Below are positions 1 through 59,525 of a stretch of 64,000 nucleotides of DNA, in pieces. The stretch lies in NCBI GenBank assembly GCA_043228905.1, contig JBHGNT010000016.1:806001-870000 (forward strand). The letters are read 5' to 3'. The translations under genes and the position numbers were made by a program. A model generated the notes under the pieces. The model did no database searches, had not been told where the DNA came from, and saw only the letters and a program-made list of their open reading frames with translations. Position 1 is the first letter of the stretch, and each line of letters begins with the position of its first letter. The stretch is from Azolla caroliniana (Eukaryota > Plantae > Polypodiophyta).

Positions 1-675
1 TCCTAACGGTGTGATCCAATCATGAAAGGAATCGAGATAGTCTCGGAGGCGAATCCACGGATTTTTAGAGCGGACTATTGAAGCATGGGGCACAAATAGT
101 CCGAGCAATCACAAGACCCCACAAGAAAGAAGAGTGCGTGGATTGCGAGGAGAAGCAACATGTGTCACACCTAGTGGCGCATGTAAATTAGTACCACCCG
201 ACAAGAAGGACAAGCGTCGGATACAAGAATTCGAGAAGATGTTGAAAGAAGAAAACATAATAGAAGAAGGAGAGTTTGTGACTCATATTATGGAAGAAGC
301 CTCATTTAACGACACCATCAGCAAAATCGAGGACGTCGTGGACTGAGCTATCTTCACGACCAACGCGTGATTTCGGTTAGCTCCAACAACATGTACGCTA
401 TCATCGATGAATAACGTCGTGGCATCTCGATGAAGGAAGTTGACATCAACACGAAATATAAAACGGTGGATAAGAAGATCAAGCAAGTTGCTGTCGTGAT
501 ATGACACGACTCAAACCCATGACCTTAGGTTATATGGGTGGAGCTCTTGACCATTATATCATCTATTGTAATACGTAGGATATTATTTTCATTTACATTG
601 TATTATAGGAAATTAATGTATATTCCAGATTTCTCTGGAACATTTTAGAAGCTTCAGGATTACTCCTGAGAACAC

Positions 676-682
676 TATAAAA
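676..682 (+). promoter_or_regulatory. TATA box of LTR promoter
   Basis: TATAAAA inside the LTR, ~30 nt upstream of the segment complementary to the PBS. Confidence 0.55.
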
Positions 683-1022
683 GAGGGCACTAGGCATTAT
701 GTTGAACCAAATTGGTTCAACGCCAGTCTTTAGCCTCATAGCCCTTTTGTACTTACTCTTCTTATAATATATAATCTATGATCATCATCATCTCTCTCTC
801 TCTCTCTTGTCCTCGCTATCTCTCTCTCTCTCTCTCTCTCCTCTTCTCTCTTCCTCTCTTGGGAGTCTTACGCAGTCCTGTCCTCTTAGTACTAATAGTA
901 CCTCCCTTCTCTAGTACTAATCCTCTCTCTGTTTAGTACTATTCCTGACAGTTTGAACCAATTTCCCCTTCTGTCTCTCTCCCTTCATACTAATCTCTTA
1001 TTCCTCTTTTCTTTTTCATCCC

Positions 1023-1550
1023 ATGGCCACAGTTAGCGCTCAGGAATATCAATTTGTTTTCTTGGAGTTTCAATGTTTGAAAGAGAAGTTCCTTGCTTTG
1101 GAACAAGAAAATCAACGGTTGCTGGGGGATATTCAACAAATCTCCTTAGAAAAGCAACAAACGCAACAACAACATGGGGAACTTGCATTACGCGTGCAAT
1201 AACTCGAAGCAACCATCGTAGCGATGCAACAACAAGGCCTCGGAACACAAGGGATTCATAAGAAACCCAAGATTGGCCTTCCCACGAAGTTCGATGGAAC
1301 ACGATTGCAGTTTAGAGGGTTCCTTAATCAGGTACGATTAGTTATTCAAATGCATCCTTCCCGATATCCTACCGATGCATCACGTGTGGGTTTAGTAGGG
1401 ACGTTGTTAAGTGGCTCAGCGTTGGCATGGTTTGCCCCACTGTTGGAAAAGGAGTCTCCATTACTCAACAACTTTGAAGAGTTTATAGGTGAGTTTAAAG
1501 CATGCTTTGGGGATACTGACAGCATAAGGACCGCAATCAACAAAATCCGG
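1023..1550 (+). pseudogene. truncated gag (Retrotrans_gag, sushi/PEG10/Tcn1-like capsid N-terminal part)
   Basis: ATG at 1023 (MATVSAQEY...), one TAA at 1200, then PKIGLPTKFDG...FRGFLNQ...SRYPTD..RVGLVGTLLSGSALAW...FEEFI.EFK..F; cut by the inverted LTR. Confidence 0.85.
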
Positions 1551-1641
1551 AGAAGGGAGGTACTATTAGTACTAAGAGGACGAGACTGCGTAAGACTCCC
1601 GAGAGAGGAAGAGAGAAGAGGAGAGAGAGAGAGATAGCGAG

Positions 1642-1644
<3 letters not shown>

Positions 1645-1706
<62 letters not shown>
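1645..1706. repeat. (GA)n microsatellite in the inverted LTR arm
   Basis: Long pure GA run; its counterpart in the left arm (791-806) is much shorter. Confidence 0.95.
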
Positions 1707-1710
<4 letters not shown>

Positions 1711-2345
1711 GATAACAGATTATATATTATAAGAAGAGTAAGTACAAAAGGGCTATGAGGCTAAAGACTGGAGTTGAACCAATTTGGTTCAACATAATGC
1801 CTAGTGCCCTCTTTTATAGTGTTCTCAGGAGTAATCCTGAAGCTTCTAGAATGTTCCAGAGAAATCTGGAATATACATTAATTTTCTATAATAAAATGTA
1901 AATGAAAATAATATCCTACGTATTACAATAGATGATATGATGGTTAAGAGCTCGACCCATATAACCTAAGGTCATGGGTTCGAGTCTTGCCATATCATGA
2001 CAGTTGCGGTTCCGCTACCGGAAGATAGCTGGCAAAAGATGAAGGAAGTCGCTAACGATCCAAGCTTAAGAGATCCGAAGAAGATAGGTCATGTTTTCAC
2101 CAAAGAGACGAAGGGGAAGCTACGAGTTGAAGAGGAGCGAATGTTTCGCGATATGCTTGAGAGACATGGGAAGGCTTTCGCATTCTTCTCACGAGAAATC
2201 GGATTTGAAACTGATACCGGTTTCGAGAGCACACCATCCGAAGCTGATCGAGCTCTTAAAGGAGAAGGTGAGTATGGGAATTCTAGAACCGTCGAATGCT
2301 CCTTATTCCAATAGGTGGTTCACGGTACCGAAGAAGAATTGATCA

Positions 2346-3596
2346 TTGCGATTCATCCAAGATCTTCAACCTGTCAACAAGGTGACAATTCGAAATGCCG
2401 GAATCGGTCCGAGCGTGGACGAATTTGCCGAAGCGTTTGCGGGCCGGTCCATCTACTCCATTGGCGATCTCTACTCCGGATATGACCAATTCCAATTGGC
2501 GATCGATAGTCGGGACATTACAACCATGATGACTCCGATCGGGCTTGTGCGGATGTGTACCTTACCCCAAGGCGCAATGAACTCGGTGGCTCATATGATG
2601 AATGCCATGAATAAAGTCTTGAAGGATTGCATCCCAGACATCACGATGCCATTCTTGGATGATATTCCGATAAAAGGATGTTCGGATGAGGAGAAAGATG
2701 AATCGAAAGATAAGGAAGGTTGTAGAAAGTTCATTGCGGATCATATGAAAGATTGCGAGAAGGTGCTTCAAAGGCTTGAAGATGCGAATTTGACATTTTC
2801 GGGAGAAAAATCCGCATTCGGGCAACCAGAGATCTTGGTGGTAGGTCACTTGTGTGGGGCATACGGCTGGAAGCCTTCGCCATACAAAGTGAACGCGATC
2901 CAAGACATGAAAGAAGAATGTGAAAACCAAACAGAGGTTAGAAGGTTCCTTGGAGCATGCACATTTTATCATATCTGGATTCCGCACTACGCTCATGTCG
3001 CCGAACTGTTATATGGACTACTAAAGAAAATAATGAAGTTCGAATGGCGAGACAAGCACACAAATGCGATGCGAAGATTGAAGAAACTGCTTCTTGAAGC
3101 TCTGGCACTAAGGAAGGCCGACTATGCTGAAGGGAAACCGATTTACGTGACCGTAGATACGAGCCCAACCAGAATCGGGTGGGTCATCAATCAAGAAGGA
3201 GAAGATGATGCGCGATATGCCGTCCGGTTCGGAGCAAAGATTCTCAGCGAATGGCAACAAAGATATGCCCAAGTCAAGCGGGAACTTTGGGGTATTGTGT
3301 CGGTAGTGAAGACGGACAAAGATTACCTAATCGGGTCGGAAGTGATAATAGAGACAGATTGTCTCCCAATTCTCGGAATGGTCTCGGAATGTGCGACCCC
3401 AGATCTTGCTATGCTAAGGTGGATCGCCTACATCAAGTCTTTAAACCCAGAGATCCGTCACATTGAAGGGAAGAAGAACGCCATGGCTAACATGTTGTCA
3501 AGGGCAAGATTTGAAAATGGAAGCGACATGGTTTCGGAAGACGAAGATGTCGCTCTCGACTTCTTCAAGATGGCTCGATTATCGGCGGAAGACTAG
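2346..3596 (+). pseudogene. gypsy pol fragment: reverse transcriptase + RNase H
   Basis: 416-aa ORF with RT LPQG / FLDD motifs and an RNase H region, flanked by in-frame stops. Confidence 0.9.
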
Positions 3597-3674
3597 GACA
3601 CGCAAACCCTCCATGCCTTCAACGAGAATGAGTACGAAGGAGAGTGGTTACTGATCGGTAGATTCCTAAGAACA

Positions 3675-4981
3675 TTGATGGCAGATGCTTCGTTGACAAA
3701 GGAGGAGGCCCTACGAATCCGGAAGAAAGCTTACCGATACTTCTTGAAGGGAGGATTCCTTTGGCGACATCCAAAAAGAAGGACAAGAATCCCACGTCGA
3801 GTGGTGGTGAAGAAAGAAGAGCAAGAGACACTAATGATCGAATTCCACGAGAGTGCTTGGGCAGGTCATAGAGGAACATGGGCGACATTCAAAAAGTTGA
3901 AGGAAAAGTGCTGGTGGCCAAGCATGTACAAAGATGTACTCCATTTCGTGTCCACATGCGAAACTTGCCAAATATATTCAAATATATGTCATTGTGATGA
4001 GTTACAGTCGACATACCCACTCACCATACACTTCAAATGGATGGTGGATCTGGTCTCAATGCCAATGGGAGTGGGACAAATGAAGTACTTAGCGCTGGCA
4101 CGGGAAGACTTGACAAATCAAGTGGAAGGATGAGCCTTGACAAATAAGACGACTTCAACCGTTTGCAAATTTCTGCTTGAAGAGGTTGTTTGCCGATACA
4201 GATGTATGGGGAAGATAGTGGCCGATCGAGGGGAGTTGGATGCGCACGAAGTGACGGAGCTCTTCGAATGACTAGACGTGAAGCTCTCCCTCAGGACTGC
4301 CTACAATCCGGAAGCGAATGGGAAGATCGAGCGAGGGCATGAACCTATCGTTAAAGTCATTGTACGGGCATGCAACGGTCGAGTCGGGAATTGGCCACGA
4401 CTATTACCCTATGCCTTGTGGGCCGACAGAACGACACATAGCTCGGTGACAGGGTATATGCCGACGGAGCTTATGTATGGACAAAAGCCGGTAATGCCCA
4501 TCGAAAGGACAATCGCCTCATGGGTAGCGATACCGTGGGAGAACGAGATGAGGTGAGAAGATTTATTAGCGGTGCGGATAAGGCAACTTGAAAGAAGACC
4601 TGAAGATCTAGAAAAAGCGGGAAAGATGATGGAGGCAGCCGAGTAAAGAACAAAGTTCGGTTCGACAACACGCATCGACTTCGTCCCAAGAAGATTGAAG
4701 AAGGAGATTGGGTTTTGGTTTACGACAACAGCCTTGACAATCAACATAGTACAACAAGAAAGTTCGCAAGAAGATGGTTCAGGCCGTATGTGGTGACAAG
4801 TGCCAACGATAATGCCACATACCACCTTGCGGAGCTAGATGGATCAAGGTTGGCCGTACCCATTGCGGGAAAAAGAGTAAAGATTTTCAAGAAAAGACAA
4901 GACGAGAATCTTGACCTCGATCACCTCGACGATGAACATAATAGGGCGGATGTAAATGAAGACATGGAGGAATATGATTGA
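3675..4981 (+). pseudogene. gypsy integrase (disrupted)
   Basis: H-x5-GH...C-x2-C zinc finger, rve core, C-terminal RWFRPYVV...YHLAELDG region; several stops. Confidence 0.85.
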
Positions 4982-13824: not shown

Positions 13825-14175
13825 TGTTGAGAATCAAGCTCAACCTAGTCTAGTGTGTGAACACACCCTTGAGAGTGTGCACTCAAAGGTCAAATGTCAC
13901 CACTCTTATCCACACATTAATTATATGTCATAGAATCATATTCTATGACACATAACTAATGAGCTTTCACATTCCCTGTGACCCATGAGCTTCGGTAGTT
14001 AATGAAGAGAGAGAGTGGCTATATAAAGCACTCTCCTCCTACTTTGTAATAAGTTCGGTTAATCTCCTTTGTAATATACATTGACTTGAGTATTCTATTC
14101 TTGTTTAAAATATATATCTATCTTGTGTTTCTCTCTCTCTCTCTCTCATACACACACACACACTCACTCACAACA
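13825..14175 (+). repeat. 3' LTR of the copia element
   Basis: TGTTGAGAATC after the PPT, ending ...CACAACA; related inverted copy at ~28090-28560. Confidence 0.75.
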
Positions 14176-14224: not shown

Positions 14225-17200
14225 GAAATGAATGGCCGACAAGTAAATCGGGTGCAACTTGTCTCGGTGTCGGACTCTGGAATGGACTTGGCAATTGTCG
14301 TCGCACGTCGTTACGAAATTGTGCACGTCTCGATACATCCCCGACCACCAATACTTCTCCTTTAGTTTCTCGAAAGTGGCCCATGTGCCCCGGTGTTTGG
14401 ACCAGGGGCTCTCGTGGAACTCGGAGACGAGCCCCGATTGCTCTTCCTTCTTTGCCACCACCTGGAGTGGCGTGCCGGTCCGTCTCTTCCGGTGCTTCCA
14501 TATCTTACCATTCCATAGAAAGAACCGGTAAGCCTTCTTTCGGATCCGGCTCGCTTCGTCTTTCGTCCATGCCGCGTCCGGACCCATCGTGCTTATGAAC
14601 TTACCAATCTGGAGCCCCTCCCCATCGTAGTCATCCTAGTTGAACTTGTTTAGGGCCGTTGTGCTCCGCTTGTTCGCTGACATTCGAGTCGAGTCGAAGA
14701 AGTCCACGCCGACCTCTTCGTCTCCCGACACCATGTTGTCCTCGTTCTCGAACTGTGCTCTTGAGGGCACATCGGCCATGGTGTGGTCCTTTCCAGAGAT
14801 GTGTCGTAACTCCGGATTCAAGGACTTGTTGTACGCAATCCACCTGAGCATCGCCAGGTCCGGAGTCGCGTATCCGGAAACCATACCAAGGATCGGTAGG
14901 CAGTCTGTCTCGACTATCATCTCCGTCCCGATCAAGTAGTCTTTATCGGCCTTGACCGCCAAAATGATGCCCTAGAGTTCACGTTTAACCTGGGCGTATC
15001 CTCGTTGCCACTCGTTCAACACCTTCACATTGAACCAGATGGGGAACACTGTGTCATCCTCATCTTCTTGATTAATCACCCACCCGATTTTGATCGGACT
15101 TGTATCCACCGTTACGTAAACTGGAGTGTCTGCCTTGTATACCGCCTTCCAGAGAGCCAATGTTGATGTTAGGCTCTCCTTCAGTTTCCGGATCGCCTCT
15201 GTGTGCTCTGCGCCCCATTCGATCTTCCGACCCTTCTTCAGCAACCCGTAGAGCGGCTCGGCAAGGTGCACGTAGTGTGGGATCCAAATGTGGTAGAAGG
15301 CGCATGCTCCCAGTAATTGTCGGACTTCCGTGACCGACCTGCATTCCTCCTTCATCGTGGAGATGGCCTCTACCTTCGTCGGAGACGGTTTCCGACCATA
15401 TGGTCCGCACCATAGTATGAACCATACGTACCATACGTGCATTCTCATTCGTGTAAGAAAAACACCCTCAAAGAATGATAAATACCATACTTTTGGATTA
15501 ACTATTTATTATGAGGTAAGTAAGCCTAAAAAATGGAAAAAAAAACAAAAAAAGGGGAAAAAACAAAAAAAAACACAAGAATGTTTGAGTAACATTCGCA
15601 TTCGTTTTCCAACGTAGGAAAACGAATGTTATTCTAGATGTACGCAAATTTTACGTACTATGGTCCGCACAAGTGCTCCACTCTCCAAGATGCAGTCCAT
15701 CAAAACCTTGTTCATTGAATTCACCATATGCGCCACCGAGTTGGTCCCTCCTTGCAGTAGGGTATACATCCGAACTAGACCGAGAGGGGTTCGCATTGTC
15801 GTGATATCCCTACTCTCCACGGTTAGCTAGAACTGGTCATATTCGGAGTACAAGTCGTCAAATGAGTAGATCGACCTCCCCATGAAGGCCTCTGGAAACT
15901 TGCCAATTGTCAGCCCAATCCTTGCGTTTCGAATGGTCACCTTGTTGACCGTCTGCAGGTCTTGAACGAAGCGTAGTGTGCCGTTCTTCTTCGGCACCGT
16001 AAACCATTGATTTGAGTATGGGGTGCTCGACAGCTCGAAGATCCCCATCTCGATCTTCTGTTGGAGCAACTCCGTCAACTTCGGTATGTGAGCTCTTGGC
16101 ACCAGAATTGGCATGAGATTCCACGATACGTGCGGTACCGTGAAGATCACCATTGGCTCCACGCAGCCAATCTCCCTCGGTGAGAGTGCGAAGGCTTTCC
16201 TGTGCCTTCTGAGCATTGTCCGAAATTGGTCTTCCTCTGCCGGTAGTAGGAAGCCACCCCCACCGATCTTGAGATCCCGTAGTGTCTCGTCAGTGAACCG
16301 ATGTCCTATGCCGACCGGATCTCGTAAACTTGGGTCGGCCGCGACTCCTTTCATCCGCTCCCAGTTGTCCTCTGGCAAGGGAACCGTGATTGACCTCACC
16401 TTCCGGTACACAGTACTTTGTGCTTACTAGGGCCGTTCGATCCGACCTGACCATCCTTCCGAAGTCCGCGATGACTTCGTACATTTCGACTGAACCAACC
16501 GGAACTATCTGGTCTTCGCGCAGGTTCTCTTTGGCCAACCTCTCGATCTCCTCGAGAGTGTCTTCAAATGAGACCGCCTCCATGGCGCCACTGATCTCGT
16601 CGTCGGAGCCAATGCGCCACAGGCCTTCAAGCGTCCTTCGACCCGCTTCTTCTCTCGGTCATCGATGTCGGTTATGGTACATCCTCCATTAGCAAAGGGC
16701 CAAATTTTCCTACTTATGGTACAGGTGTGGGGTTTCCTCTGGTCATCCGGACTACCGCGGCCCCATGCCTTGATAGTCCTTTCTAAAAATCCTCTCGACC
16801 TTCACCGCCAAGAGAGTCCCGATTCCGCTCGTGGTTCGGTCGGACTGTTAAGAACTGGACGGAGTGCCGATCGTCCTGACTCTTCACCCTAACGTAGGCC
16901 GAGCCATTGTCCAACACCTTCATTTCCATTCGAGCTGCCATAATGTACGGTTCATCGAGGATGACCGGATGGGAGGATGTCTCTTGCATGAAGAAGTGAT
17001 GGTCTATCTCGACGTGCTGGACATTTGGGCACACTCCATGCAGCTTCTCCGTGGCTCGTGTAGCCGCGTGTATCTTCTACCCGTGCTTGGTGTTGATCGG
17101 CCATTTTCCCTTCTTATAAAAGTCCATGGACATTAGGTTAATTTCCGACCCATGGTCAATCAATGCCACCACCGGTTCCTTCACATTCCCGATTCGAACC

Positions 17201-21568: not shown

Positions 21569-21879
21569 TGTTGGGAATTCACTCCCTCATGATGAGAACA
21601 AGACAAGCCAGATCGGATGAGCCGAAGGAAGGAACTAGACAAGCCGAAGGATGAGAACCGGACAAGCCGAAGGAAGGAATTGGACCGGATGGATCTGGAA
21701 GATATCCGAACCGAATCTGATGGATCTGATTGGTATCTAGCCAGACACCGTAATATATGTATATGTTCCGGTGTGACTGTTTGAGGTCATATTTGTAAAT
21801 AACCCCAAAGTTATATAAGTATAAATATAACTAGGGCAATACTGTTATAGTAGTTGTTGCTATCATTGTTGTTGTTGTA

Positions 21880-21919
<40 letters not shown>

Positions 21920-23734
21920 CAAAAAGCTTTTCTATTGCAACCGTCGGTTGGCGAAGGTAGAGCTCGAGGTCATTGCCTCTGAGTTTCCCATTGTACCTTT
22001 CCTTTGTCTAGTGGTATAGTTCAGAGTCTGTGGGCTCCCATGGTTTTCCCGACTAGGGTTTTCCATGTTAATATTCCGTGTCGTCTTATTCTTGTTTTCT
22101 GTTTCTTCCATTGTGTGCTTGGATCTCGGTTGTGGCTGAGAACGATTCTTGTCAATATGGTATCAGAGCATGAAAGATCCATTCGACGCCATGTTCAAGC
22201 TCACCAACTCCAACTACCTAGTGTGGAAGTCGAAGATGAGGGACATGTTAGTGGTTAAAGATCTTTGGTTGCCGGTACAGTTTGGAGACAAAAGACCGGA
22301 CAAGATTGATTCCGCGAACTGGGAGGTGATGCATATGAAGATGATGGCATACATAAGATGCTTCATTGACATGAGCATGTACAACAACTTCAATGACGAA
22401 AGCAAGGCTCGTGTGCTCTGGGAGAAGATCAACACCATGGTGAGAGCAAGAATGTCGTGAATCGAGTATCAGTATTTAGAAAGCTGGTGAGAATAAGATA
22501 TCAAGATGGCTCCAGCATGGCGAAGCACATGAATGCCATCCAGGGGCTCATAAAATCAAACGACCTCGTTGGAAGTATCTCTAGCCGATGAGGTACTCGG
22601 TTTGTTGTTGCTCGGTTCCCTCCCGAATAGTTGGGAGACACTAGTTGTCACTTGGGCAACGCGGGGCAGGAAGGTAAACACTTATCCCTAACAAGAGTAA
22701 AGTCAAGCTTGCTAGATCAAGAAGCTCCTCGGAAGGACCAGGAATCCGGAACCGATCCAAAGGTCTTGGTTACAGAAGACAACAATAACCGGGGAAGAGG
22801 TTGGAATTGAAGTCCCTATAATGGGGAGAAGTTGGGAACGAGGTCGAAGTCAAGGGGGAGGCCCACTTGCTTTTATTGCGGCAAGCCGGGGCACTTCCAC
22901 AAGAATTGCCGACACTTCTGGAAAGCCAAAGGGAGAGCCGACGGTCCGGAACCGAAGAAGATTTCGGAAAGAAGAGGAATGTCGGGAATCGCGATAAGTG
23001 AGGAAGAACTATTGCTCATCACTGAGGGCAACGAGCTACATCTTGTCAGCGACAAAATGATGTGGGTGGTCGACTCCGGAGCGTCGTTCCATCTAACCCC
23101 GACCGGAAGTGCTTCTCATCCTATGAAACCGGAGATCACGGTTGTGTCTGGATGGGGAATGAAGGTGCATGCCGAATTGTCGGCACAGAAGACGTGTGGT
23201 TGATGACGTCAATCGGGTGCAAGTTGCTGATGAAAGATGTCCGACATGTTTCGGAGGTTCGACTAAACCTGATATCAGCTGGTCGGCTGGATGATGAAGG
23301 CTACACGGGTAGCATCCAGAACGGAGTGATGAAGTTTAGCAAAAGGAGTTTGATCGTGGCCCGAGCCCGGAAGATCAACACATTATACCTAATGCATGCC
23401 TGGATATCCTGGGAAGAGGTGAACGTGGCATCTGACACTGCCGGTGAACTGTGGCACAAGAGTTTGTGTCACATGAGCCAAAAAGGGATGCATAAACTTG
23501 CCGAGGATGACCTCATTCCGGAGGTGAAAGACGTGCAACTTGAGGGGTGCATCGACTGTTTGGCCATCAAGCAAAACCAAACCTCTTTCTGAACCCTACC
23601 ACCGTCAAGACGGAATGCCCCGTTGGAACTTTTGCATATTGATGTATGCCAGGTGGACACGAAGTCACATGCCGGATCACAGTACTTTGTGACAGTCATA
23701 AATGACCACAATTGGAAGTTGTGGGTCTCATCGC

Positions 23735-24475
23735 TGTCGTGGAGAAAACCGCCCCAGGAGGAATCAAAGGGGAAGAGGTGTGACCCAACCCCTTTCGCGC
23801 GTGTGTGTGTTTATGAATTGTACATAGCTAGGAATAGATCGGCTGATGTACATGTACTAGGTAGGGTATTAATTGTCTAAGGAATTGATGCGTATCTCTG
23901 TCTGAAAGGACAGAGAATAAAGTTGATCTGTTTTGATGTAATGGCCTCCTCGATGACCTATAAAGGGGAGGGGAGAAGAAGAAGAAAGATATCGCATTTT
24001 GGCAAGGAGGAAGTGTTGTCGGACTGGAAACCGAGCTCTCTCCTCCTCTACTGTTGCTCTACGCTACGTTTCTATGTCGGTTACCTCTGCTGCGTGTAAG
24101 CCCGTGTGCTTCCAGCAGAGGCTCCACCGTGCGTTCTCTATGTTGTCCGTGTGTGTGCGTGGAACCTCTGTTTGGGGTCTGTTGCCGGTTTGCCTATTGT
24201 AATCAAATCGTCTGTTGCGTGTAAGCCCGTGTGCTTCCAGCAGAGGCTCCACCGTGCGTTCTCTGTGTTGTCCGCATGTGTGCGTGGGACCTCCGTTTGG
24301 GGTCTGTTGCCGGTTTGCCGATTGTAATCGTTGATTGACATTGTAATCAAATCTTCTATTTTGTCTCTCTCTGTGTGTTTCTGTGAGTCGCTCTCCCTCT
24401 TCTTTCCCATGCTCCTTGGTTCAAGGCCCCCGTGGTCCCGCCTCATTTCACACGCAAGAGCATAACAACATGACA
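23735..24475. mobile_element. solo LTR (gypsy-type termini) inserted in the copia integrase
   Basis: TGTCGTG...CATGACA termini; flanks TCGC / CCGC; the host frame WVSPLKMK is restored when it is removed; TATAAA at ~23959; internal ~123-bp tandem duplication. Confidence 0.8.
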
Positions 24476-24596
24476 CCGCTGAAGATGAAGGATTAGGTAT
24501 TGACAGTCTTCAAGGCGTTCCACGTGAGGGTGGAAAGAGAAACCGATCGGAAGCTGAAAGCGGTTCGAGCTGACAACGGTGGAGGGTATTGTGGGC

Positions 24597-25351
24597 TAGG
24601 GATCGGCAACGGCTCGGCTCAAGCCTAAACCGTTTGGCTTAGACGGCTTGAAAACGGCTTAGCGGCTCGGCTCGGCTCGATTTAGGCTTGAACTTGCCTT
24701 AACTGTTTGAGCTCAGCTCAGCTCGGCTTGAACCTCGCCAAACCGGCTCAAGCCGGCTAAACCGTTTAAGCCGTTTATAAACTTTAGAGAGAGGGGGAGA
24801 GAGACAACAGACAAGGGGAAAGAGAGAGAGAGAGAGTGTGTGTGAGGGAGACTAAACAGATGATGGGAGAGAGAGTGTGTGTGAGGGAGGGACACTAAAC
24901 AGACGATGGGAAAGAGAGAGAGTGAGTGAGGGAGAACTACACAGACGAGGAGAGAGAGAGAGGGAGGGAGACAGCATATAAGGAGAGAGAGAGAGAGAGA
25001 GAGGAACTACATAGAGGGGGGGGAGAGAGAGACTACACAGAGGGGGGGGGGGGGGAGAGAGAGAGAGAGTCGAGACCACAGACGTGAGAGAGAGTGGGAG
25101 GGACAGCTTGTACAATGTATAGTATATAGTATATAGTGGATCATTTGAGAGAGAGAGGGAGGTAGGGAGAGAGAGAGAGAGGGAGGTTTCTAAACCAGTT
25201 TGGAAACCGGTTTCCAAGCCGTTTACCAAACCGGTTTAGCGTAAACCGGTTCGGCTCAGGTTTGAGATCCCGTAAACGGTTTAGGCTTAGCCGGTTTGGC
25301 CTGATCCAAGACAAACCAACTAAGCCTAAACCGAACCATTGCTGATCCCTA
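24597..25351. mobile_element. hAT-type MITE (TAGGGAT family)
   Basis: TIRs TAGGGATCGGCAA / TTGCTGATCCCTA; 8-bp TSD TTGTGGGC / CCGTGGGC; subterminal GGCTC and AAACCG repeats; GA-rich core. Confidence 0.88.
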
Positions 25352-28087
25352 CCGTGGGCAAATCGAGGAGTATTGTTGATCGAAGGGAATTTAGCTCGAA
25401 TTTACCGTGCCGAAGATGTCAGAGTTGAACGGGTTGGCCGAAAGGATGAACCAGACTATTATGGAGAGAGTTTGGAGCATGCTGGCACATGCTAAGTTGT
25501 CCAAGTCGTTTTGGGCTGAGTAGCTGATGACGACGACCTATGTGATAAATAGATCACCCTCAACACCCTTGGAAGGAGATACACCACAAAGATTATTGAC
25601 TGGTAAAGAAGTGTCTTACCGAAATCTGAAGGTGTTCAATTGTCTTGCCTATGTGCGTGTAGCAAAGGACAAGAGTGAGCAATTGACCCGAAATGCTAGC
25701 CCTGCATATTCCTTGGGTACGACGATGATGAGTTCGGCTACTGAGTGTGGGACTTGGTCAACAAGAAGGTCTTCCGAAGTCGAGAAATAGTCTTCACGGA
25801 AGACAAAACCATAGCTGACTAGGAATCAGAGTTGAAGATAGTATCCTCCGGATCGACTGACAGAGATCGGTTGGAAGATGCAAGGACCCATCCGGTCGGA
25901 AGCTGGATATTAGCCGAAGACCATAGGGAACCAGTCGGTTCCGAACAAGGAACCAAATCAACCGAAGAAGATCCGAACACCGAAACTGGACAAGACCCCG
26001 AATCGGATTCTAATGAAGAACAGATGGAAGAACCAGTGGACGAAAACCAAGGACGGAGATACCCTCTCACAGAGAGAAGAGCCCCTCGGAGATTTCCGAA
26101 TGCAGAGCATGTACTGTTGATCGACGAGGGGGAGCTAGAAAGCTTTGAAGAAGCAAAGAATGACACCCACAGCTATAAGTGGTTAAGTGTCATGTAGGAT
26201 GAGATAGATTCCTTGCATGAGAACCACGCATATGAACTAATGGAGCTACCGAAAGGAAAGAGAATGCTTCGGAACAAGTGGGTGTACAAGTTGAAACTGG
26301 GAGACACCGGAAATCCACCAATATACAAAGCCTGAATCGTGGTGAAGGGGTTTCAACAGAAGAAAGGAGTGGATTTCGACGAGATCTTTGCCCCAATAGT
26401 CAAGATGACATCCATCTGGATTGTGTTGAGCATAGCGGCGAGCATGGAACTCAAGGTTGAACAACTCGATGTTAAGACGATGTTCCTTCATGGGGACCTC
26501 AAGGAGGAAATCCACATGTAGCAACCTCCGATACCTAAAAGGCACCTTGAACATGTGCCTCTAGTTCGGCTCCGGTAAGCCCCTATTAGAAGGCTTTACG
26601 GATTCAGACATGTCGGCTGATGCAGATACCAACTGGTCCACGTCTGGATACACCATGACCTATGGAGGGGGAGTGTTATCATGATAATCAAGACTGCAAA
26701 AATTGGTGGCAATGTCAACAACAGAAGCGAATACATGGCGGTTGTGGAAGCTGACAAAGAGGTAATCTGGATGAAGGACTTCATCAGAGAGCTAGGGATT
26801 CGACGGAGGAATTCCAACTCTACTGTGATAGTCAAAGTCCAAGCACATCCAAAGGAGATACCACTAGCTCCGGGAGAAAGTAGAAGATAAAGAGTTTTCG
26901 TTGACGAAGTTCCACACGAAGGAGAACGGGTCGGACATTCTGACCAAGGTGTTGTCAGCTAAGAAGTTGGACGTGTGCCGAAAATGGATCGGATTGACAA
27001 GACATCCCATGCCGGAGTGAAGTGGGAGTTTGTTGAGAATTAGGTCCCTCCGGATGGGATCCAGATGAGAACCGGACAAGTCGGATCGGACGAGCCAAAT
27101 GAAGGAATTGGACCGGATGGATCCAGTAGTATATGTATATGTTCTGATGTGACTGTTTGAGGTCATATTTGTAAATAACCCCAAAGTTATATAAGTAGAA
27201 ATATAACTAGGGCAATAGTGTTATAGTAGTTGTTGCTATCATTGTTGTTGTTGTATAGAGAGAGACACACAGAGAGATAGAGAGAGAGGTATAGAAAGCT
27301 TTTTTGTTGTAACCGCCGGTTGGTGAAGGTAGAGCTCAAGGTTGTTGCCTTTGTATTTCCCATTGTACCTTTCCTCTGTCTAGTGGTATAGTTTGGGGTC
27401 TATGGGCTCCCGTGGTTTTTCCCGATTAGGGTTTCCCGCGTTAATATTTCGTGTCGTCTTATTCCTGTTTTTTGTTTCTTCCATTGTGTGCTTGGATCTC
27501 GGTTGTGGCTGAGAACTATTATTGTCAAACGTATCATGGGCAAACATTAATCGATATCATGATCTCACCTAAATACCCCTTTGGACATATGAGATGAGGT
27601 TCAAGATTAGGTAACTATGGTAACACAAAGGCGTTTTAAAAACCATGGGGGTGACAAATAAATGTCTTTCCCTGATCTCTATATCTATTTTTACATGGCG
27701 GCTCCCCAAGGATCAACCATGTTTGTTTGCATCATGAATAGTTTATACATGAAAAAATGCTAACAATAAATTATGTCTTTGTGCCCAACCGTGTGGTTTC
27801 GGCTCTTTAAGTCCTATTATGAGGACCCCGAAGTGCACTTAGACCTAAACTCTAAACATGTTTAATACTCATATGTATTAATAATGTTGTATGTTCTTGG
27901 TTATATTTGAACTAGAAACCTCGAGAACAATGTCATTAAACACTTGAGCTAACCAAATGGCTTGTTCATATTGAACATTTAATGTTTATGCGTATGAGAG
28001 ATATGTGAAGGCATGTACTCACATATGTTTTTTTAAAAGAAAACATGTGTTTAAATCCTTATTTCCCCCTCATTAACTAGGAAACTA

Positions 28088-28560
28088 TATTGGCACATTA
28101 CCTAACTTCAAGTCTCCTCATTACAATAAGATAACTGTAAAGAATTGTGTGTGTGTGTGTGAGAAAAGAGGAGAGCATAGGAGAGAAACACAAGATCAAT
28201 AAAATAAATGAAGTACTCAAGAAGTTGTATATTAACAAGGAGAATATCAAGTAAAAACATCTAGCATAATAAGGGAGCTTAACCAACACTTTATAAAGTA
28301 GGAGAAGGGTGCTTTATGTAAGGTCACCCTCTCTCTTCATTAACTCACTATAACGCTCACTCTCTCTCTAGAACCTTGGGGAATGCGGAAACTCATTAGT
28401 CATGGGGAATATAGAACTCATTAGTCATGTGTCATAAAGTATGATTTTGTGACACGTAGTTAATGTGTAGAGAGTAGCGGTGACTTTTGACCTTTGCGTG
28501 CTCATAGATTCTCAAAGGGTGTGTTCACATACTAGACTAGGTGGAGGTTGATTCTCAACA
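28088..28560 (-). repeat. solo/remnant copia LTR related to 13825-14175
   Basis: The reverse complement begins TGTTGAGAATCAACCTCCACCTAGTCTAGT, matching the 13825 LTR start. Left boundary approximate; no clean TSD. Confidence 0.7.
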
Positions 28561-28589: not shown

Positions 28590-29580
28590 TAGGAAACCTT
28601 GTGTATTCAACCCTGGACAAAAGGTATTTCTACGTGTACCTTACAATTCTAAGATATTGTCTACAAGTAAGTGTGCTAAGTTAGCTCCACGGTTTTGTGG
28701 ACCTTTCACAATCCACAAACACATTGGTTCATCAACCTATCGTCTTGCTCTTCATGAGGGTGTCGAAATCCATCCAATTTTTCATGTAATTCGTTTAAAA
28801 TAACTTATTGGTTATGGCAACAATACAGTTACAACTGAAACTCTAGTTACTTCAGAAGATTAAGCTTCTAAACCACATGTACCGGACAAAATTCTTGATG
28901 TTAAAACAAAACGTTTGCATTCTAAAACAATCCGAGAATTTAAAATTAAATGGATGGATAAATCTATAAAGATGCTACATGGGAATGAGAAACACCATTA
29001 AAACTAACTTCCCTAACTTTTCATTGAAAGAGTGCAATGCTTTTAAGAGGGGGAGGGGAGTATGTTACGGGTATGACCATAAATTATCCCGTGGTAAGTT
29101 TGTACTGCAATATTCTATACATGTGGATAAAGTGTGAGGGTTAAACGAGAGTGTAAAGAAGGGAGGTTTACTTTTAATCTTAGGAATTGAGACAACCCAT
29201 AAGGGCCAAGTGTGAACTTAACCCGGGGGGCCTTAGGTCTTGCTATAAATATGAGGCCTAGCCACCCTCATTACGGACATCATTCAACTACGTCGAGACT
29301 CTAATCTTGTGATGATCGAACTCATGTAGCAAGCGCGCCAGTACAAGGTATGACTCGATGTCAAGGCGGTGGTATGGGAAGCCAATCGGGGCTCGAGTTT
29401 GTCTCGATCCATTCGTTCGGGGGAGGTCGAGTGGATCGCCACCCTTCTTTCTCTCTCCTTTCTTATCTATCTATTTATTATTTCCTTGTCATGTGCTTAT
29501 ATTAGGATTAAGCTCTAACAATTAAGGTGATATGAGAACATAAGGGTCAAACCCACATGAGGCATACCGCATCATGATAT
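28590..29580 (+). mobile_element. chromovirus remnant: integrase C-terminus and chromodomain, PPT and LTR (from 29063)
   Basis: KLAPRFCGPF, YRLAL, IHPIFHV, KILDVK...FKIKW...DATWE peptides across frameshifts; PPT AAGAGGGGGAGGGGAG then TGTTACG. Right end approximate. Confidence 0.75.
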
Positions 29581-38747: not shown

Positions 38748-39608
38748 AAATGGCTATTTAGATTAGGGTTTCTATTCAAGGCTGATTAAAACAGAGGAAG
38801 TAGAAGTAACTCTTGCTGTAGTCTTTTCTGAGAAGTGAATGCTTGATCTGTGTGATCTACATCATGGTTGATGAGTTTTCTATATGAAGCTCTTTGCACT
38901 GGAGAAAGTAGATTTAGCATCAGTCAAAGTTCTAGAAATTTAAAGCCATGTGTAAAAATTGATGGTAAGCTTGTCCTATTTGTTCTGGTTTTAATTGTGT
39001 CTCAAAATGAAGGAGAATGTAATATGTTCGCATATCAAGGAGAAATAGTTACTGTTTATGTTGGTGTATAAAGTTTCCAGTAGCTTTTCTGCATTTAACC
39101 ATTTGTATTCTTTCATGCCCTTATACAGGTTTTGCTTTTACAAACATAAACATGAGCAATCTGTATTAAACCTTTTCCTGTAAACATCACATATTGGAAA
39201 GATATAGAAAGCTATATCTCTTTGTGTTAAGGTTTTTTTTTCTGAACAGTTTCAAAAAGGCAGATATAAAGTTTTTTCCACTTAAATAAGCAGAATCCAC
39301 TCGTGTTAAGATATTTTCGTCAATTTAGGGTTGTTTTATTACAATTTTAAGATTAAACCCTTTCCTTCTACGACCCTGACTTTCCTAATAATGGACTTAT
39401 ACTTGCTCAGGACTTGCATTCTCGTTGCAGTTTGATGTTTTGCTTTGATTAATCAATGTTAATGTAATTATAAAACTCAAACCACAAACAACATAAGAGT
39501 TTATGCTTTTGCAGGTTATAGGATACATATCACACTCCAACCTCTTAGCCATTCAGGTGAAGTTAAGTTAGATTTTCATGTGTTGTGGGACTATGCACAA
39601 ATCAGGTG

Positions 39609-40673
39609 ATGCTCAAAGTCAGCTCTATAACAGATGCTCTCGGAGTGGCAACATTAGTGCTCATAGTTGCCCTTTGCCTTTTCAGCATTTTTTGCATCGG
39701 CTATGTTCTCTATTTCAGGTTCCAAATCAGACGAGGCCGAATGCTCGCACTAGAAGATTTCAATGCTGTATGGGTTGTTCGAATAATTCTAATCATATCA
39801 GCAATGTTATGGAGCTTGGTTGAACTCATGCAATTACCTATCTTGAGAAGTAAAGTACCTCTTCTAGGACTTCCGCAACAGGAAGCCTTCTGTGATATGC
39901 ATACAGTTTTGTCCTTTGGTGTAATGGAGCCATGTTTCTTTCTCACTGCACTCTTTCTTGTGCAAGGATCAGTTCGAGATGCTCCTTTCACACCCCTCAA
40001 AAAATGGAATAAGAGGACCATAAGTCTCATACTTCTTTTTATTTTCCCTCTTCTGTGTTTTCAGCTCTCTCTTGTCATAATCACCTCCAAGATGTCCTCC
40101 CAAGACGGAAAGGTATTTGGTTTGCCAATCTATTTCACAAGATCTTACATCAGACGCTCGGATAAAGTGTTTTGCACTTTTCCTCTTTTGAGCACTTTGC
40201 TGCTGGGTTTATTCAGTTTGGTATATAATTTCTGCTTTCTATGGTGGGGATATCGAATGTTGGCTTTAGTTATAAATAAAAGACTGCAGATGAGGGTTCG
40301 TGGCCTTGTTCTATCATTGGCACTCCTTTTGCCCTTACAAATTCTGTTCTTGGGGCTATCAGTGCTTTCAATTCCGGGAAATTTACTGTTTGACTTGATG
40401 TCTTTATTGAGCTTTCTCACTCCTCTTACATGCATGGTAATAGGAGAGGTAATGCTCGTTGCTCAACCCATTACAGATGCTATGGCTGTAAGGTGGGTCT
40501 TCAACTCTCTTTCAAATCAGGCTTCATTTGATCCCTTTACAATGCCCATCTTTGTATGTGGGAATGAAGAAGATGGTTCTCCATGTCCATTGATGAAAGA
40601 AAGCTTGGAAAGTGACCCATTTGATAAGATTTCGAGTCCTCACCACGGATCTGTGTCAATGGTGAGATTTTGA
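39609..40673 (+). CDS. plant multi-pass (about 7-TM) membrane protein of unknown function, single coding exon (354 aa)
   Basis: Long ORF with ~7 hydrophobic segments; first ATG at 39609. Probable 5' UTR intron(s), with donor GTAAGC ~37773 and acceptor TTTGCAG ~39514. Confidence 0.8.
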   Translation: MLKVSSITDALGVATLVLIVALCLFSIFCIGYVLYFRFQIRRGRMLALEDFNAVWVVRIILIISAMLWSLVELMQLPILRSKVPLLGLPQQEAFCDMHTVLSFGVMEPCFFLTALFLVQGSVRDAPFTPLKKWNKRTISLILLFIFPLLCFQLSLVIITSKMSSQDGKVFGLPIYFTRSYIRRSDKVFCTFPLLSTLLLGLFSLVYNFCFLWWGYRMLALVINKRLQMRVRGLVLSLALLLPLQILFLGLSVLSIPGNLLFDLMSLLSFLTPLTCMVIGEVMLVAQPITDAMAVRWVFNSLSNQASFDPFTMPIFVCGNEEDGSPCPLMKESLESDPFDKISSPHHGSVSMVRF

Positions 40674-45051: not shown

Positions 45052-45585
45052 TGTAACCGTTGATATTGTTTTCCATATGTGGGTTGCACGCACTTGCTTG
45101 TGAGGTTGCTAAAAGGGGGAGACATAAATTAGATGTAATTAGAGACATGAACTAATGTAAGCATAAAATAAGGATAAAAGATAGATCTAGATAGAAAGGA
45201 GAGAGAGAAAGAAGGGTGTTGATCCACCCAACCACCCCTGAGCGAAGGGATCGAGACGGACTCGAGCCTCGATCGACATCCCATACCACCGTCGTGGCGT
45301 CAAGTTGTACCTGGTGCTGGCGCGCTCGCTACAAGAGTTGACCCACCACAAGATAGAGTCTCGACATAGTCAACAAGATGATGAAATGAGGGTAGTTAGG
45401 CCTCTTATTTATAGCGATACCCAAGGCCCCCATGCAAGTTCACACTTGGCCTAATGGGTTGTCTCAATCCCGAGGATTAAAAGTAATCCTCCCCTTCTTT
45501 ACACTCTCGTTTAACCCTCGCACTTATCCACGTGTATAGAATACTATGGTAAATTCTCACAACGGGATATTATATTATCATAGCC
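45052..45585 (-). repeat. solo LTR of the same family as the LTR at 29063
   Basis: The reverse complement shares long blocks with 29070-29460 (e.g. GAGGGTTAAACGAGAGTGTAAAGAAGGG, TTGAGACAACCCAT, GGCCAAGTGTGAACTT). Boundaries approximate. Confidence 0.75.
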
Positions 45586-51206: not shown

Positions 51207-53250
51207 ATGGGCTGCACACCCTCAAAGGGTGTAGTCTCTAGCCCAAGAAGTAGAAGAACATGGAATGCCTTAATTTCCAGTGGCCTTTCAGTGCAAGTGG
51301 ACAAGAATACTAAATCAGCAACAGATTCCGATTATATAGCTGCAATCTTGTCTTCCGATTATAATAGATCTGTCAAGAAGCCCATTTCACCAGCCAAAGG
51401 TAATCTTCCCCTACGATCTTTGATAAAGTTTTATGGTAAGACGGATTTATGTGTGTGCTTGTGCTTATGCATGTGCATATGTATAACAAGACTTGTTTGT
51501 ATGCAATTCCACGAAGACTGATATAGAGAATCAAATGCATAATATATGCATGTGGTAACAAGGACTTATTTGTATGCAAATTCCATGGAGACCAATATAA
51601 AGCATCAAATCCATGTTTGTATGCAAATTCCATGGAGACCATAAGTCAACATAGAATATACACGGATAAATGTTTGTTATTTTGAAACAACTTCATTGTT
51701 TGCAATTCCAAGGAGAACAAAATATAAAGCATCGATGAAGTGTGGTTGTGTGTGTGTGCATGCGTGGGCGCACACGCATGAAACATGTATGTATGTATAT
51801 ATGTGTGGAGAAAGAACTTTCCTGTAAGTAACGTTTGTTGGAGAACAACATAAAAGATTAAAGACATAAGAGTGTATATGTATAAAAATCTGTTATATAT
51901 TTTGCAGTAATAATGAGTTTTTTTATATGTGATTTCATTGTGATATATAAAGGAATCAAAGAAACCCCAAGACATACCAAATCAAAATCTGTGCTCAATG
52001 GTGGGGATTCAGACAACGATGCTACTGAGGATGTAGCCATATCCATTGAAAAGGAGGAAAAGATTACACAATTTGAAACCATTAACACGTGGGAGCTTAT
52101 GGAGGGGCTTGATGATGATGAAGAAGAGGACGAGAATCTCTCTCTGAATCCAAGAAATGATCCTCTCCAACGGGCACTTTCCTTCAAATATATATTCTCT
52201 CGTGGAAACTATGAAGATAACAAGAACTTGGGCTTGACCTCATTTAGTCCATTCAGTGCTCCTTCAAGCCCTGAGTTCTCAGCCGCGGTGAGCCTTAAAG
52301 ACTGGCTTCCGTCCAACAACCATTCATCAAAGCATGTAGAAGAGCTTATGGGCACCTTACAGTCATCTATTCTTGAGGCTTGCCAACATATGCAAGTGAA
52401 TCCAGAACAACAAAGCCAATTGAAACATGCTGATGATGAACCAATTCAATCTATAGAAAATCTTATCACACAAGATGATTTATTCGATAAAATAGAAGTC
52501 ATGAAAGACAACTCCAAGGTACCTTTGTTTGATCCAGAATTGCTAGAATCTTTTGAGAGAGCTATGTTACAACTATCGAAGGAGGAGTGGAATGCGGTGA
52601 GAAGCATTGAAGAGAGCCCCAGTAACTTTGCTCATTTTGTGAATTCTCTCAAGAGAAGCTGCTCTAATTCTTTGTATCCACTAAAAATTGCCAACATGGA
52701 CGACTCTGCATTAGCTAGCACTCATAGAGATCATAGCAATGCAACGTACACAAACCATTCTGATACCATCTCAAAGATTAGTAATCATAGGACTGCAAAT
52801 CAAACTTCCATTCATGATGATAGAAATCGAAAGATGATTTCATTGGGAAATATATTGACCGTTAATAGACAAAATAGTTGGCAACCCAAGAAAGCCACCA
52901 CCATAAATTCCAAAGCAAATGATGGTAAATGCTTCAATGTGGTGTTCTACTCTACTACCTTACAACCTGTCACCAAAAGTTTCAAGGATTGCAATCAAGT
53001 GCGAGAGATTCTGATATCCATAATAGGTGCTACCTTTGATGAAAGGAACATCTCAAATCATCAGCAACATTTAGAAGAACTTAAGTACGCTTTGAACATC
53101 TCAGTTGCAGTCGTCCCAACTATATATGTGAAGGGAAAATATATTGTTGGGATAGATAGTATTCTTCAGTTGTACGAGAAGGGTGTGTTGGGACCAATGT
53201 TGAAAAAAGCCCTACAAGCAGAACCAGAAACCAGTGTGCCATTAATTTGA
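51207..53250 (+). CDS. plant glutaredoxin-like-domain protein (GRX-like / GRXCR-type family); exons 51207-51399 and 51953-53250 (alternative in-frame acceptor 51908)
   Basis: N-terminal MGCTPSK lipidation-type start. Family motifs ETINTWELMEGLD, PLFDPELL, VVFYSTTL...F.DC..VR.IL...DER.IS...EEL...VP..YVKG.YI.G. Phase-1 GT-AG intron. Confidence 0.85.
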
Positions 53251-59180: not shown

Positions 59181-59490
59181 TGTCGCGGAAATCCGCGGCT
59201 TGCGGGTCAGCTCGGGCGGGACCACTGGGGTCTCGGACCGGAGAGGATGTTGATGGGTAACTAGGCTTTGTCGGTGTTGATTACCTCGACTAGGGCCCCG
59301 GCCTAGTCATCGTCTCTTTATGGTGATTGCTTGTTGGCTTCGTTTGGTTTGGCTAGCCGACTCCCCTTCGTCCTTTCGGGCCGGTTGAACCGGATCGCCT
59401 CTTGATCATTCAGATGGGGCCCCGCGGCCCTGACCTACTCTTTGCAACTATATTGGCCTCCCTTTCGACTACCATGACGCTAGATAAGAC

Positions 59491-59525
<35 letters not shown>

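What the first reader, a model, noticed from the sequence alone, without database searches (positions are those of the whole stretch)
487..2007. Retroelement with inverted LTRs but an integrase-style 5-bp TSD
Seen: a full LTR (492-950), PBS and half of gag are followed by a reverse-complement copy of the same LTR (1550-2002 mirrors 492-911). Both ends are therefore the U3 end. The unit still has TG..CA termini and a perfect GTTGC duplication, and removing it restores the host gypsy frame (KQVA|VPLP). Known: LTR retrotransposons have direct LTRs, and DIRS elements have inverted ones but use a tyrosine recombinase and normally leave no TSD. Inference: a two-U3-ended fold-back cDNA was integrated by a DDE integrase. 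It is either a one-off aberrant reverse-transcription or autointegration product, or a non-autonomous family of LTR-derived TIR-like elements. It also has two convergent LTR promoters, and read-through would give a ~400-bp hairpin, a possible siRNA source silencing the parent family.
Basis: partly seen in the sequence, partly recalled or inferred. Interest (0 to 1): 0.82.

Follow-up and report, generated by a model that had tools for sequence, protein, structure and literature searches.

The report
Retrotransposon misfire with two left ends
This 1.5-kb insertion is half a copy of a common plant retrotransposon with the element's left end at both termini and a clean 5-base target duplication, likely a one-off copying error that the element's own integrase likely still inserted, leaving a copy predicted to be dead rather than a new mobile family.

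Summary
The structure is real. A full LTR (492-950), primer site and half of gag are joined at 1550 to an inverted, U5-truncated copy of the same LTR (1550-2002), with GTTGC on both sides. Contigs from 4 of 4 public runs carry the empty host site lacking exactly 1516 bp, which proves the duplication. Both termini are U3. The parent is a high-copy Ty3/gypsy family whose primer site pairs with its own LTR transcript, as in self-priming Tf1/Tcn1 elements. The junction shares 0-1 nt and lacks the LTR's U5 terminus, so it is not a plain autointegration joint. The LTR break sits at the base of a 9-bp U5 hairpin (about 2-7% by chance, post hoc). Best reading: two unfinished plus-strand cDNAs were joined end to end, and integrase inserted the product by two U3 ends about 2-5 My ago (recalled rates). 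With no PPT and no direct 3' R it is predicted not to replicate; nothing supports a family, and siRNA output is untested. The scan noted similar two-left-end inserts in other genomes (unchecked notes). Verdict: a genuine, likely dead, aberrant cDNA fossil of moderate interest.

The parts
487..491 (.). Left target-site duplication GTTGC
   Evidence: empty-site contigs skip 1516 bp in 4 of 4 runs
492..950 (+). Arm 1: complete LTR, TG...CA (U3 about 492-708; R/U5 709-950, boundary inferred)
   Evidence: high-copy family in 4 of 4 runs
676..682 (+). TATA-like box TATAAAA (mirror copy at 1812-1818 on the minus strand)
   Evidence: sequence; promoter role inferred
701..721 (+). 21-nt palindrome at the inferred U3/R border; 709-720 is the predicted self-primer
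912..941 (.). Perfect 9-bp U5 hairpin (12-nt loop); its base is the point where arm 2 breaks off
   Evidence: both stem arms also visible in loose ends of intact copies
953..964 (+). Primer-binding site complementary to 709-720 (self-priming type, 12 bp)
   Evidence: PMC6317226 and PMC4600332 passages
1023..1550 (+). 5' 46% of a Ty3 gag, with a premature stop at 1200-1202
   Evidence: Pfam Ty3_capsid and DUF4939; 93% to P0007 residues 1-177
1549..1551 (.). gag / inverted-LTR junction, 0-1 nt shared, no LTR terminus
   Evidence: both normal continuations appear as loose ends at 1547-1550
1550..2002 (-). Arm 2: inverted LTR copy (U3-R-part of U5, equal to 492-911), ending in CA
   Evidence: U3 identity from loose ends at 2002
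2003..2007 (.). Right target-site duplication GTTGC
1..486 (+). Host Ty3/gypsy element, part left of the insertion (degenerate)
2008..4981 (+). Host Ty3/gypsy pol (RT, RNase H, integrase zinc finger; degenerate), right of the insertion
   Evidence: Pfam RVT_1, RT_RNaseH, Integrase_H2C2

Best explanation
The insert is half a Ty3/gypsy retrotransposon with a U3 end at both termini and a true 5-bp duplication, likely made once when two unfinished plus-strand cDNAs were joined end to end inside the particle and then likely inserted by the family's integrase, leaving a copy predicted to be dead. Shown: the anatomy, the duplication, the U3 identity of both ends, the 0-1 nt junction and the self-complementary primer site. 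Inferred steps: (1) one plus strand (U3-R-U5-PBS-gag) stopped at about 1550; (2) a second plus-strand strong-stop DNA stopped at 911, just before the U5 hairpin in its template; (3) RT joined the two 3' ends on one shared base, perhaps with a non-templated base, and extended both, giving a duplex with two blunt U3 ends; (4) integrase used two identical U3 ends and made the 5-bp stagger; (5) the arms then drifted apart (K2P 0.044). The product lacks a PPT and a direct 3' R, so it would not be copied again. I put this exact route at about 0.5, and the wider claim (an aberrant two-U3 cDNA inserted by integrase in a single event) at about 0.75.
For: True duplication of the length typical of plant LTR elements: and 93.4% of 13,566 elements have 5-bp TSDs (PMC6317226 passages). 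Both outer ends are exact U3 termini. The arms come from one sub-lineage: they agree at 4 sites (557, 559, 731, 902 and mirrors) where 78-99.9% of laid depth in the four runs has another letter (40 of 162 difference rows shown). The junction has 0-1 nt in common and no LTR terminus. The LTR break is at the base of one of only 3 perfect stems of 9 bp or more in the LTR; 26-29 of 433 positions lie just before a comparable hairpin. Ty3 makes and displaces repeated plus-strand strong-stop DNAs (PMC5371799 passages). RTs including Tf1 RT clamp 2-nt 3' overlaps in vitro and stop at structures (PMC3035444 passages), and Tf1 RT adds non-templated bases to most cDNA ends (PMC11042837 passages). Aberrant template-switch products are known to integrate with TSDs (PMC1950507 passages).
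Against: One locus only, and the steps inside the particle leave no unique trace. The hairpin coincidence is post hoc, and in the wider 870-965 fold 933-941 pairs with 886-894 instead, leaving 911 in a loop. HIV-1 RT did not clamp a 1-nt overhang, and Tf1 RT clamped DNA well only with Mn2+. The arms may not have been identical at insertion: arm 1 alone departs from the family at 540 and 600, another copy's LTR start matches arm 2 at 18 of 21 residues and arm 1 at 15 of 21, site 549 varies within the family, and 4 of 16 differences lie in the terminal 22 nt (p about 0.01 for that window, 0.28-0.44 for any window). The runs laid hold at most 42% of the words, so they are relatives and allele frequencies may not apply to this genome. 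Use of two U3 ends by integrase is recalled from in-vitro work; the two papers I tried were not held.
Confidence: 0.5

Rival explanations
1. A normal element inserted first. A later break removed the 3' part, and repair copied about 420 nt of an LTR in inverted orientation, primed on the short terminal inverted repeat (TGACA) next to the right duplication.
For: Both LTR ends share the terminal TGACA, so the swap would leave the duplication intact. A blunt 0-1 nt joint fits end joining. Templated filler at plant breaks is recalled.
Against: It needs a roughly 4-5 kb loss that stops within 5 nt of the LTR end. It does not predict a break at the U5 hairpin base.
Confidence: 0.15
2. One integrase complex captured the U3 ends of two separate cDNA molecules, inserted both with a 5-bp stagger, and host end joining fused their trimmed inner ends.
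For: It explains the duplication, the two U3 ends and the 0-1 nt joint. It allows the arms to differ from the start.
Against: Both molecules must be short or lose several kb. The arms share four minority alleles, so they would still need to come from one sub-lineage. Two-donor integration in vivo is recalled and not checked.
Confidence: 0.13
3. Single-end autointegration: the U5 end attacked the opposite strand of its own gag, the strand starting at the PPT supplied the second U3 end, the filled-in product integrated, and a later deletion removed at least 39 nt of U5.
For: Inversion-type autointegration products are abundant in plant particles (PMC7197481 passages). The strand geometry gives exactly this arrangement (inference).
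Against: The junction lacks the CA terminus and 912-950, so a second event is needed. The published products are circles that do not integrate.
Confidence: 0.1
4. A member of a mobile non-autonomous family of LTR-derived elements with inverted termini.
For: TG...CA inverted termini with a duplication. Unchecked notes report many mirror-ended copies in other genomes, mostly read there as independent events.
Against: No PPT and no direct 3' R, so minus-strand transfer has no acceptor and the transcript cannot rebuild U3 ends (inference). Retroelement integrases are not known to excise chromosomal copies (recalled). The arms are 4.4% apart and gag has a stop.
Confidence: 0.04
5. Two independent insertions in opposite orientation at the same 5-bp site, followed by a deletion across their inner ends.
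For: Inverted LTR tandems formed by double insertion are described in Drosophila (PMC5932611 passages).
Against: Flanks of this family's U3 end are mixed (agreement 0.41-0.44), and plant LTR TSDs are mostly unspecific. The arms share minority alleles.
Confidence: 0.04
6. Assembly artefact from a fold-back read or a collapsed repeat.
For: No read or contig spanning the junction was seen, and no genome or long reads were available.
Against: The arms differ at 16 of 372 sites and in microsatellite length. The host continues in register on both sides, and the duplication matches independent empty-site contigs to the base.
Confidence: 0.02

Closest known systems
Tcn1-clade / Tf1-Sushi self-priming Ty3/gypsy elements (parent family; PMC6317226 and PMC4600332, passages read)
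   Same: TG...CA LTR, 5-bp TSD, Ty3 gag with fungal relatives at 57-61% identity, primer site complementary to the predicted RNA 5' end
   Different: This copy has inverted LTRs, two U3 ends, half a gag, and no pol or PPT
Template-switch complex LTR insertions in Triticeae, rice and maize (Sabot and Schulman 2007, PMC1950507, abstract and passages read)
   Same: An abnormal reverse-transcription product inserted as one unit with a TSD and similar outer LTRs
   Different: Those have three LTRs and two full cores, and the passages read contain no inverted form; here the arms are inverted, U3-U3, and the unit is truncated
Inversion-type autointegration products (Arabidopsis SISYPHUS, Ty1; PMC7197481, passages read)
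   Same: An LTR joined to internal sequence in opposite orientation inside the particle
   Different: Those are circles joined at an LTR terminus; here the joint is 39 nt inside U5 and the product is chromosomal
Mu killer of maize (PMC3440606, abstract read)
   Same: An inverted partial duplication with two copies of one terminus of a transposon; read-through would give a hairpin RNA
   Different: Mu killer derives from a DNA transposon and its silencing is shown; here the parent is a retrotransposon, the stem is 0.2-0.4 kb and no RNA evidence exists
DIRS1-type tyrosine-recombinase retroelements (recalled)
   Same: Inverted terminal repeats on a retroelement
   Different: No tyrosine recombinase or internal complementary region seen; a 5-bp TSD is present; gag is Ty3 type

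Membership tests
Ty3/gypsy LTR retrotransposon (intact or non-autonomous) | Two direct LTRs | tested here: not met
   Arms are inverted
Ty3/gypsy LTR retrotransposon (intact or non-autonomous) | TG...CA termini and a 4-6 bp TSD | tested here: met
Ty3/gypsy LTR retrotransposon (intact or non-autonomous) | PBS after the 5' LTR and PPT before the 3' LTR | tested here: not met
   PBS present at 953-964; no PPT in the unit. The parent family has one
Ty3/gypsy LTR retrotransposon (intact or non-autonomous) | Ty3-type gag | tested here: met
   Pfam Ty3_capsid above cut-off; 93% to P0007
Tcn1 clade (parent family) | Self-priming PBS | tested here: met
   12-bp pairing of 709-720 with 953-964, fold z -3.4; the RNA start itself is inferred from the TATA box
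Tcn1 clade (parent family) | RT-RH-INT phylogeny and chromodomain | not testable with these tools
   pol is absent from this copy and no intact DNA copy could be fetched
Autointegration product | Inner junction at an LTR CA terminus | tested here: not met
   Junction at 911, 39 nt short of the U5 end
DIRS / tyrosine-recombinase elements | Tyrosine recombinase and no TSD | tested here: not met
   TSD present; the unit's only long frame is Ty3 gag
Non-autonomous TIR-like (MITE-like) family | Several loci with the same internal junction and different TSDs | tested here: inconclusive
   No genome held; contig and protein searches gave no second copy but are weak
Mu-killer-like hairpin silencer | Inverted duplication able to form a long RNA stem | tested here: met
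   195 long-range pairs predicted for 709-1785; longest perfect runs 76 and 55 bp
Mu-killer-like hairpin silencer | Hairpin transcript, siRNA and trans-silencing | not testable with these tools
   No RNA holder listed

The most novel reading that the evidence does not exclude
Reverse transcriptase of this self-priming family repeatedly stalls at the U5 hairpin and joins plus strands head to head, so the genome holds many independent two-U3 inserts with breaks clustered at 911. They would be a chromosomal fossil record of reverse-transcription pause sites, in-vivo proof that integrase accepts two U3 ends, and a standing source of Mu-killer-like hairpin loci against an LTR family.
Probability: 0.15. 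Interest if true: 0.7.

Novelty: new variant of a known kind. Interest (0 to 1): 0.4.

Why it matters
If right, it is a natural case of an LTR integrase inserting a cDNA by two identical U3 ends, and the junction marks where reverse transcription stopped. That makes a testable prediction: other such inserts of the family should break at U5 hairpin bases. Inverted-LTR units are missed by tools that look for direct LTRs, so the class may be under-counted; unchecked notes of this scan list similar inserts in several other genomes. As a single, likely dead locus in a nest of old retrotransposons, its effect on the plant is probably small.

Tried and rejected
Genome-wide junction search: impossible, no genome held. 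Exact junction pattern in metagenome contigs: 0 hits, but this is void, because a parent-LTR 20-mer found only one chance bacterial contig, L001. LTR pattern and gag in viral contigs, and gag in genome contigs: nothing. Laying four runs (3 samples) on 1440-1604: none of the 32 pieces shown, of about 1,632, crosses the junction, and no joint is listed; the runs are relatives, tables are cut and a gap proves nothing, so this is not counted as evidence. No strand-change joint among 15 of 32 joint rows shown. No RNA holder listed. Junction read-through peptide: absent from 205 of 205 fetched gag relatives, and none hit an inverted LTR frame; weak, as these come from short contigs. Other inverted pairs in the window (29069-29505/45152-45585; 13825-14128/28215-28560) are 74-80% alike and gave no TG...CA plus duplication; the only other hit of that scan (34371/43335, 20 of 30 matches) was not pursued. 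The 701-721 palindrome could drive a fold-back at the primer site, but that predicts a PBS/709 junction and not the one seen. Clustering of arm differences is not significant overall. Literature: no paper describing a two-U3-ended LTR insertion with a TSD turned up in the listings (open-licence PMC and bioRxiv only; most subscription and older virology papers are not searched, and no supplements were read). PMC2857682 passages and PMC6894440 passages added nothing on this point; PMC1317513 and PMC190232 were not held.

Full report
Observation. The sequence shows GTTGC at 487-491 and 2003-2007 around a 1511-bp unit that starts TGTC and ends GACA. The unit is a full LTR (492-950), a primer site, a leader, gag from 1023, and from 1550 the reverse complement of 492-911. 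Outside a microsatellite that is 33 nt longer in arm 2, the arms differ at 16 of 372 sites, 11 transitions and 5 transversions, K2P 0.044 +/- 0.011. Gag matches the first 177 of 383 residues of an intact relative at 93%, scores above the Pfam cut-off for Ty3_capsid, and has a premature stop at 1200-1202.

The duplication is real. No genome is held, so I laid contigs of public runs on 200-2400. Both the inserted family and the host element are abundant in 4 of 4 runs. Contigs joining 485 to 2002, skipping 1516 bp (the unit plus one GTTGC), occur in 4 of 4 runs from 3 studies. A second, related Ty3 element in the window reads KVRSITVPLP without a break at the same place. In X1 and X10, 71 and 68 contigs leave the alignment exactly at 2002 with mixed flanks whose majority is the reverse complement of a purine tract, so this end is U3 (24 of 941 loose-end rows shown). 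These runs hold at most 42% of the stretch's words: they are related plants, not shown to be the source, and depth is not copy number. An assembly artefact is very unlikely, though no read spans the inner junction.

The parent family. Positions 953-964 pair perfectly with 709-720, which lies 33 nt after a TATA-like box. The predicted RNA folds with this 12-bp helix closing a U5 stem, better than 100 of 100 shuffles. This is the self-priming layout of Tf1 and Tj1 (PMC4600332, passages) and of the plant Tcn1 clade, found in moss and club-moss (PMC6317226, passages). Gag has named fungal relatives at 57-61% identity, which fits. Clade membership cannot be tested without pol. The host is a plant, likely seed-free; this is inferred from run labels and the clade's range.

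The junction. In intact copies gag runs on normally from about 1550, and the LTR runs on into U5; the two meet in the window with at most one shared base. Of 90 matches to this gag position among the proteins fetched up to, 88 continue normally, and the 2 others do not read into an LTR. The joint has no CA terminus and lacks 912-950, so it is not a plain integrase joint. The LTR break lies at the base of a perfect 9-bp stem, 912-941, one of 3 such stems in the LTR. Depending on the threshold, 26 or 29 of 433 positions lie just before a comparable hairpin, so chance is about 2-7%, judged after the fact. Against this, the wider 870-965 fold prefers another pairing that puts 911 in a loop.

One template or two. 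The arms agree at four sites (557, 559, 731, 902) where 78-99.9% of laid depth carries another letter, so they belong to one sub-lineage (40 of 162 rows shown). If they were identical at insertion, the age is 1.7-4.6 My at recalled rates of 1.3e-8 to 4.8e-9 per site per year. But arm 1 looks the more divergent: it alone departs from the family at 540 and 600, and another copy's LTR start matches arm 2 at 18 of 21 residues against 15 of 21. Site 549 varies within the family. Four of 16 differences fall in the terminal 22 nt (p about 0.01 there, 0.28-0.44 for any window). Two sister templates therefore remain possible, and the age is an upper estimate.

Mechanism. The most economical route joins two unfinished plus strands by their 3' ends: one stopped in gag, one stopped before the U5 hairpin. 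RT extends each on the other and leaves two blunt U3 ends, which integrase inserts. Repeated, displaced plus-strand strong-stop DNA is described for Ty3 (PMC5371799, passages). Clamping of 2-nt overlaps was shown in vitro for several RTs including Tf1, though not for a 1-nt overhang with HIV-1 RT, and Tf1 clamped DNA well only with Mn2+ (PMC3035444, passages). Tf1 RT adds non-templated bases to most cDNA ends (PMC11042837, passages), which could supply a second base without leaving a trace. All of these steps are inferred. Integrase use of two U3 ends is recalled; two papers tried were not held. Rivals: post-insertion inverted repair (0.15), two-molecule integration with host joining (0.13), single-end autointegration plus deletion (0.10), a family (0.04), double insertion (0.04; PMC5932611, passages), artefact (0.02).

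Family and silencing. The unit has no PPT and its second R is inverted, so the first strand transfer has no acceptor and U3 cannot be rebuilt; it is predicted to be dead on arrival. Searches for a second copy were negative but weak or void and are not used as evidence. RNA from 709 to 1785 is predicted to form 195 long-range pairs; the full stem of about 400 bp needs read-through from the host. This resembles Mu killer in layout (PMC3440606, abstract), but no RNA data were available.

Comparison and verdict. The closest published cases are template-switch complexes inserted with TSDs (PMC1950507, abstract and passages) and inversion-type autointegration circles (PMC7197481, passages). Seven searches of the open library listed no description of a two-U3-ended insertion with a TSD (listings only, older virology largely unsearched, no supplements seen). 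The scan's own unchecked notes describe similar inserts in 6 of the 8 entries shown from other genomes and one hybrid case in this genome; I did not test those loci, and a sequence look-up for this element found nothing. The finding is a real, likely one-off aberrant cDNA: a new variant of a known kind, interest 0.4.

Noticed in passing
proteins P0182 and P0212: Two database gag fragments of a related family break about ten codons before this one and read straight into the start of this LTR family in the same orientation: a nested same-family insertion or a direct-repeat deletion derivative.
   Followed up: partly
window 701-721: The predicted self-primer is one arm of a 21-nt palindrome, so U3 ends in a near-copy of the primer site. 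This could favour fold-back errors at the priming site or form a hairpin at the RNA's 3' end.
   Followed up: partly
window 897-950 (joints 949 to 897 and 950 to 899): Contigs in X2, X3 and X10 go back about 53 nt at the LTR end, suggesting copies with a tandem duplication of the U5 end among the TAGTACTA repeats.
   Followed up: no
window 14301-16516, minus strand: A second degenerate Ty3/gypsy element related to the host (67-70% DNA identity over pol).
   Followed up: partly
window 21750-27528: Copia element with direct LTRs 89% alike (21750-22155 and 27126-27528), interrupted by GA-rich repeats near 24000-25200.
   Followed up: no
window 59186-63525: Direct repeats of about 660-900 nt, 84% alike and 3.4 kb apart, with no Pfam match in the two internal frames scanned; possibly a non-coding LTR element.
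   Followed up: no
window 29069-29505 and 45152-45585; 13825-14128 and 28215-28560: Two further pairs of LTR-like copies in opposite orientation (74-80% alike), apparently separate insertions without a shared duplication.
   Followed up: partly
window 51886-53250 and 39567-40673: Two long single-frame host genes: a 454-aa frame with a C-terminal glutaredoxin domain (two 91% relatives) and a 368-aa hydrophobic, membrane-like protein without a Pfam match.
   Followed up: partly
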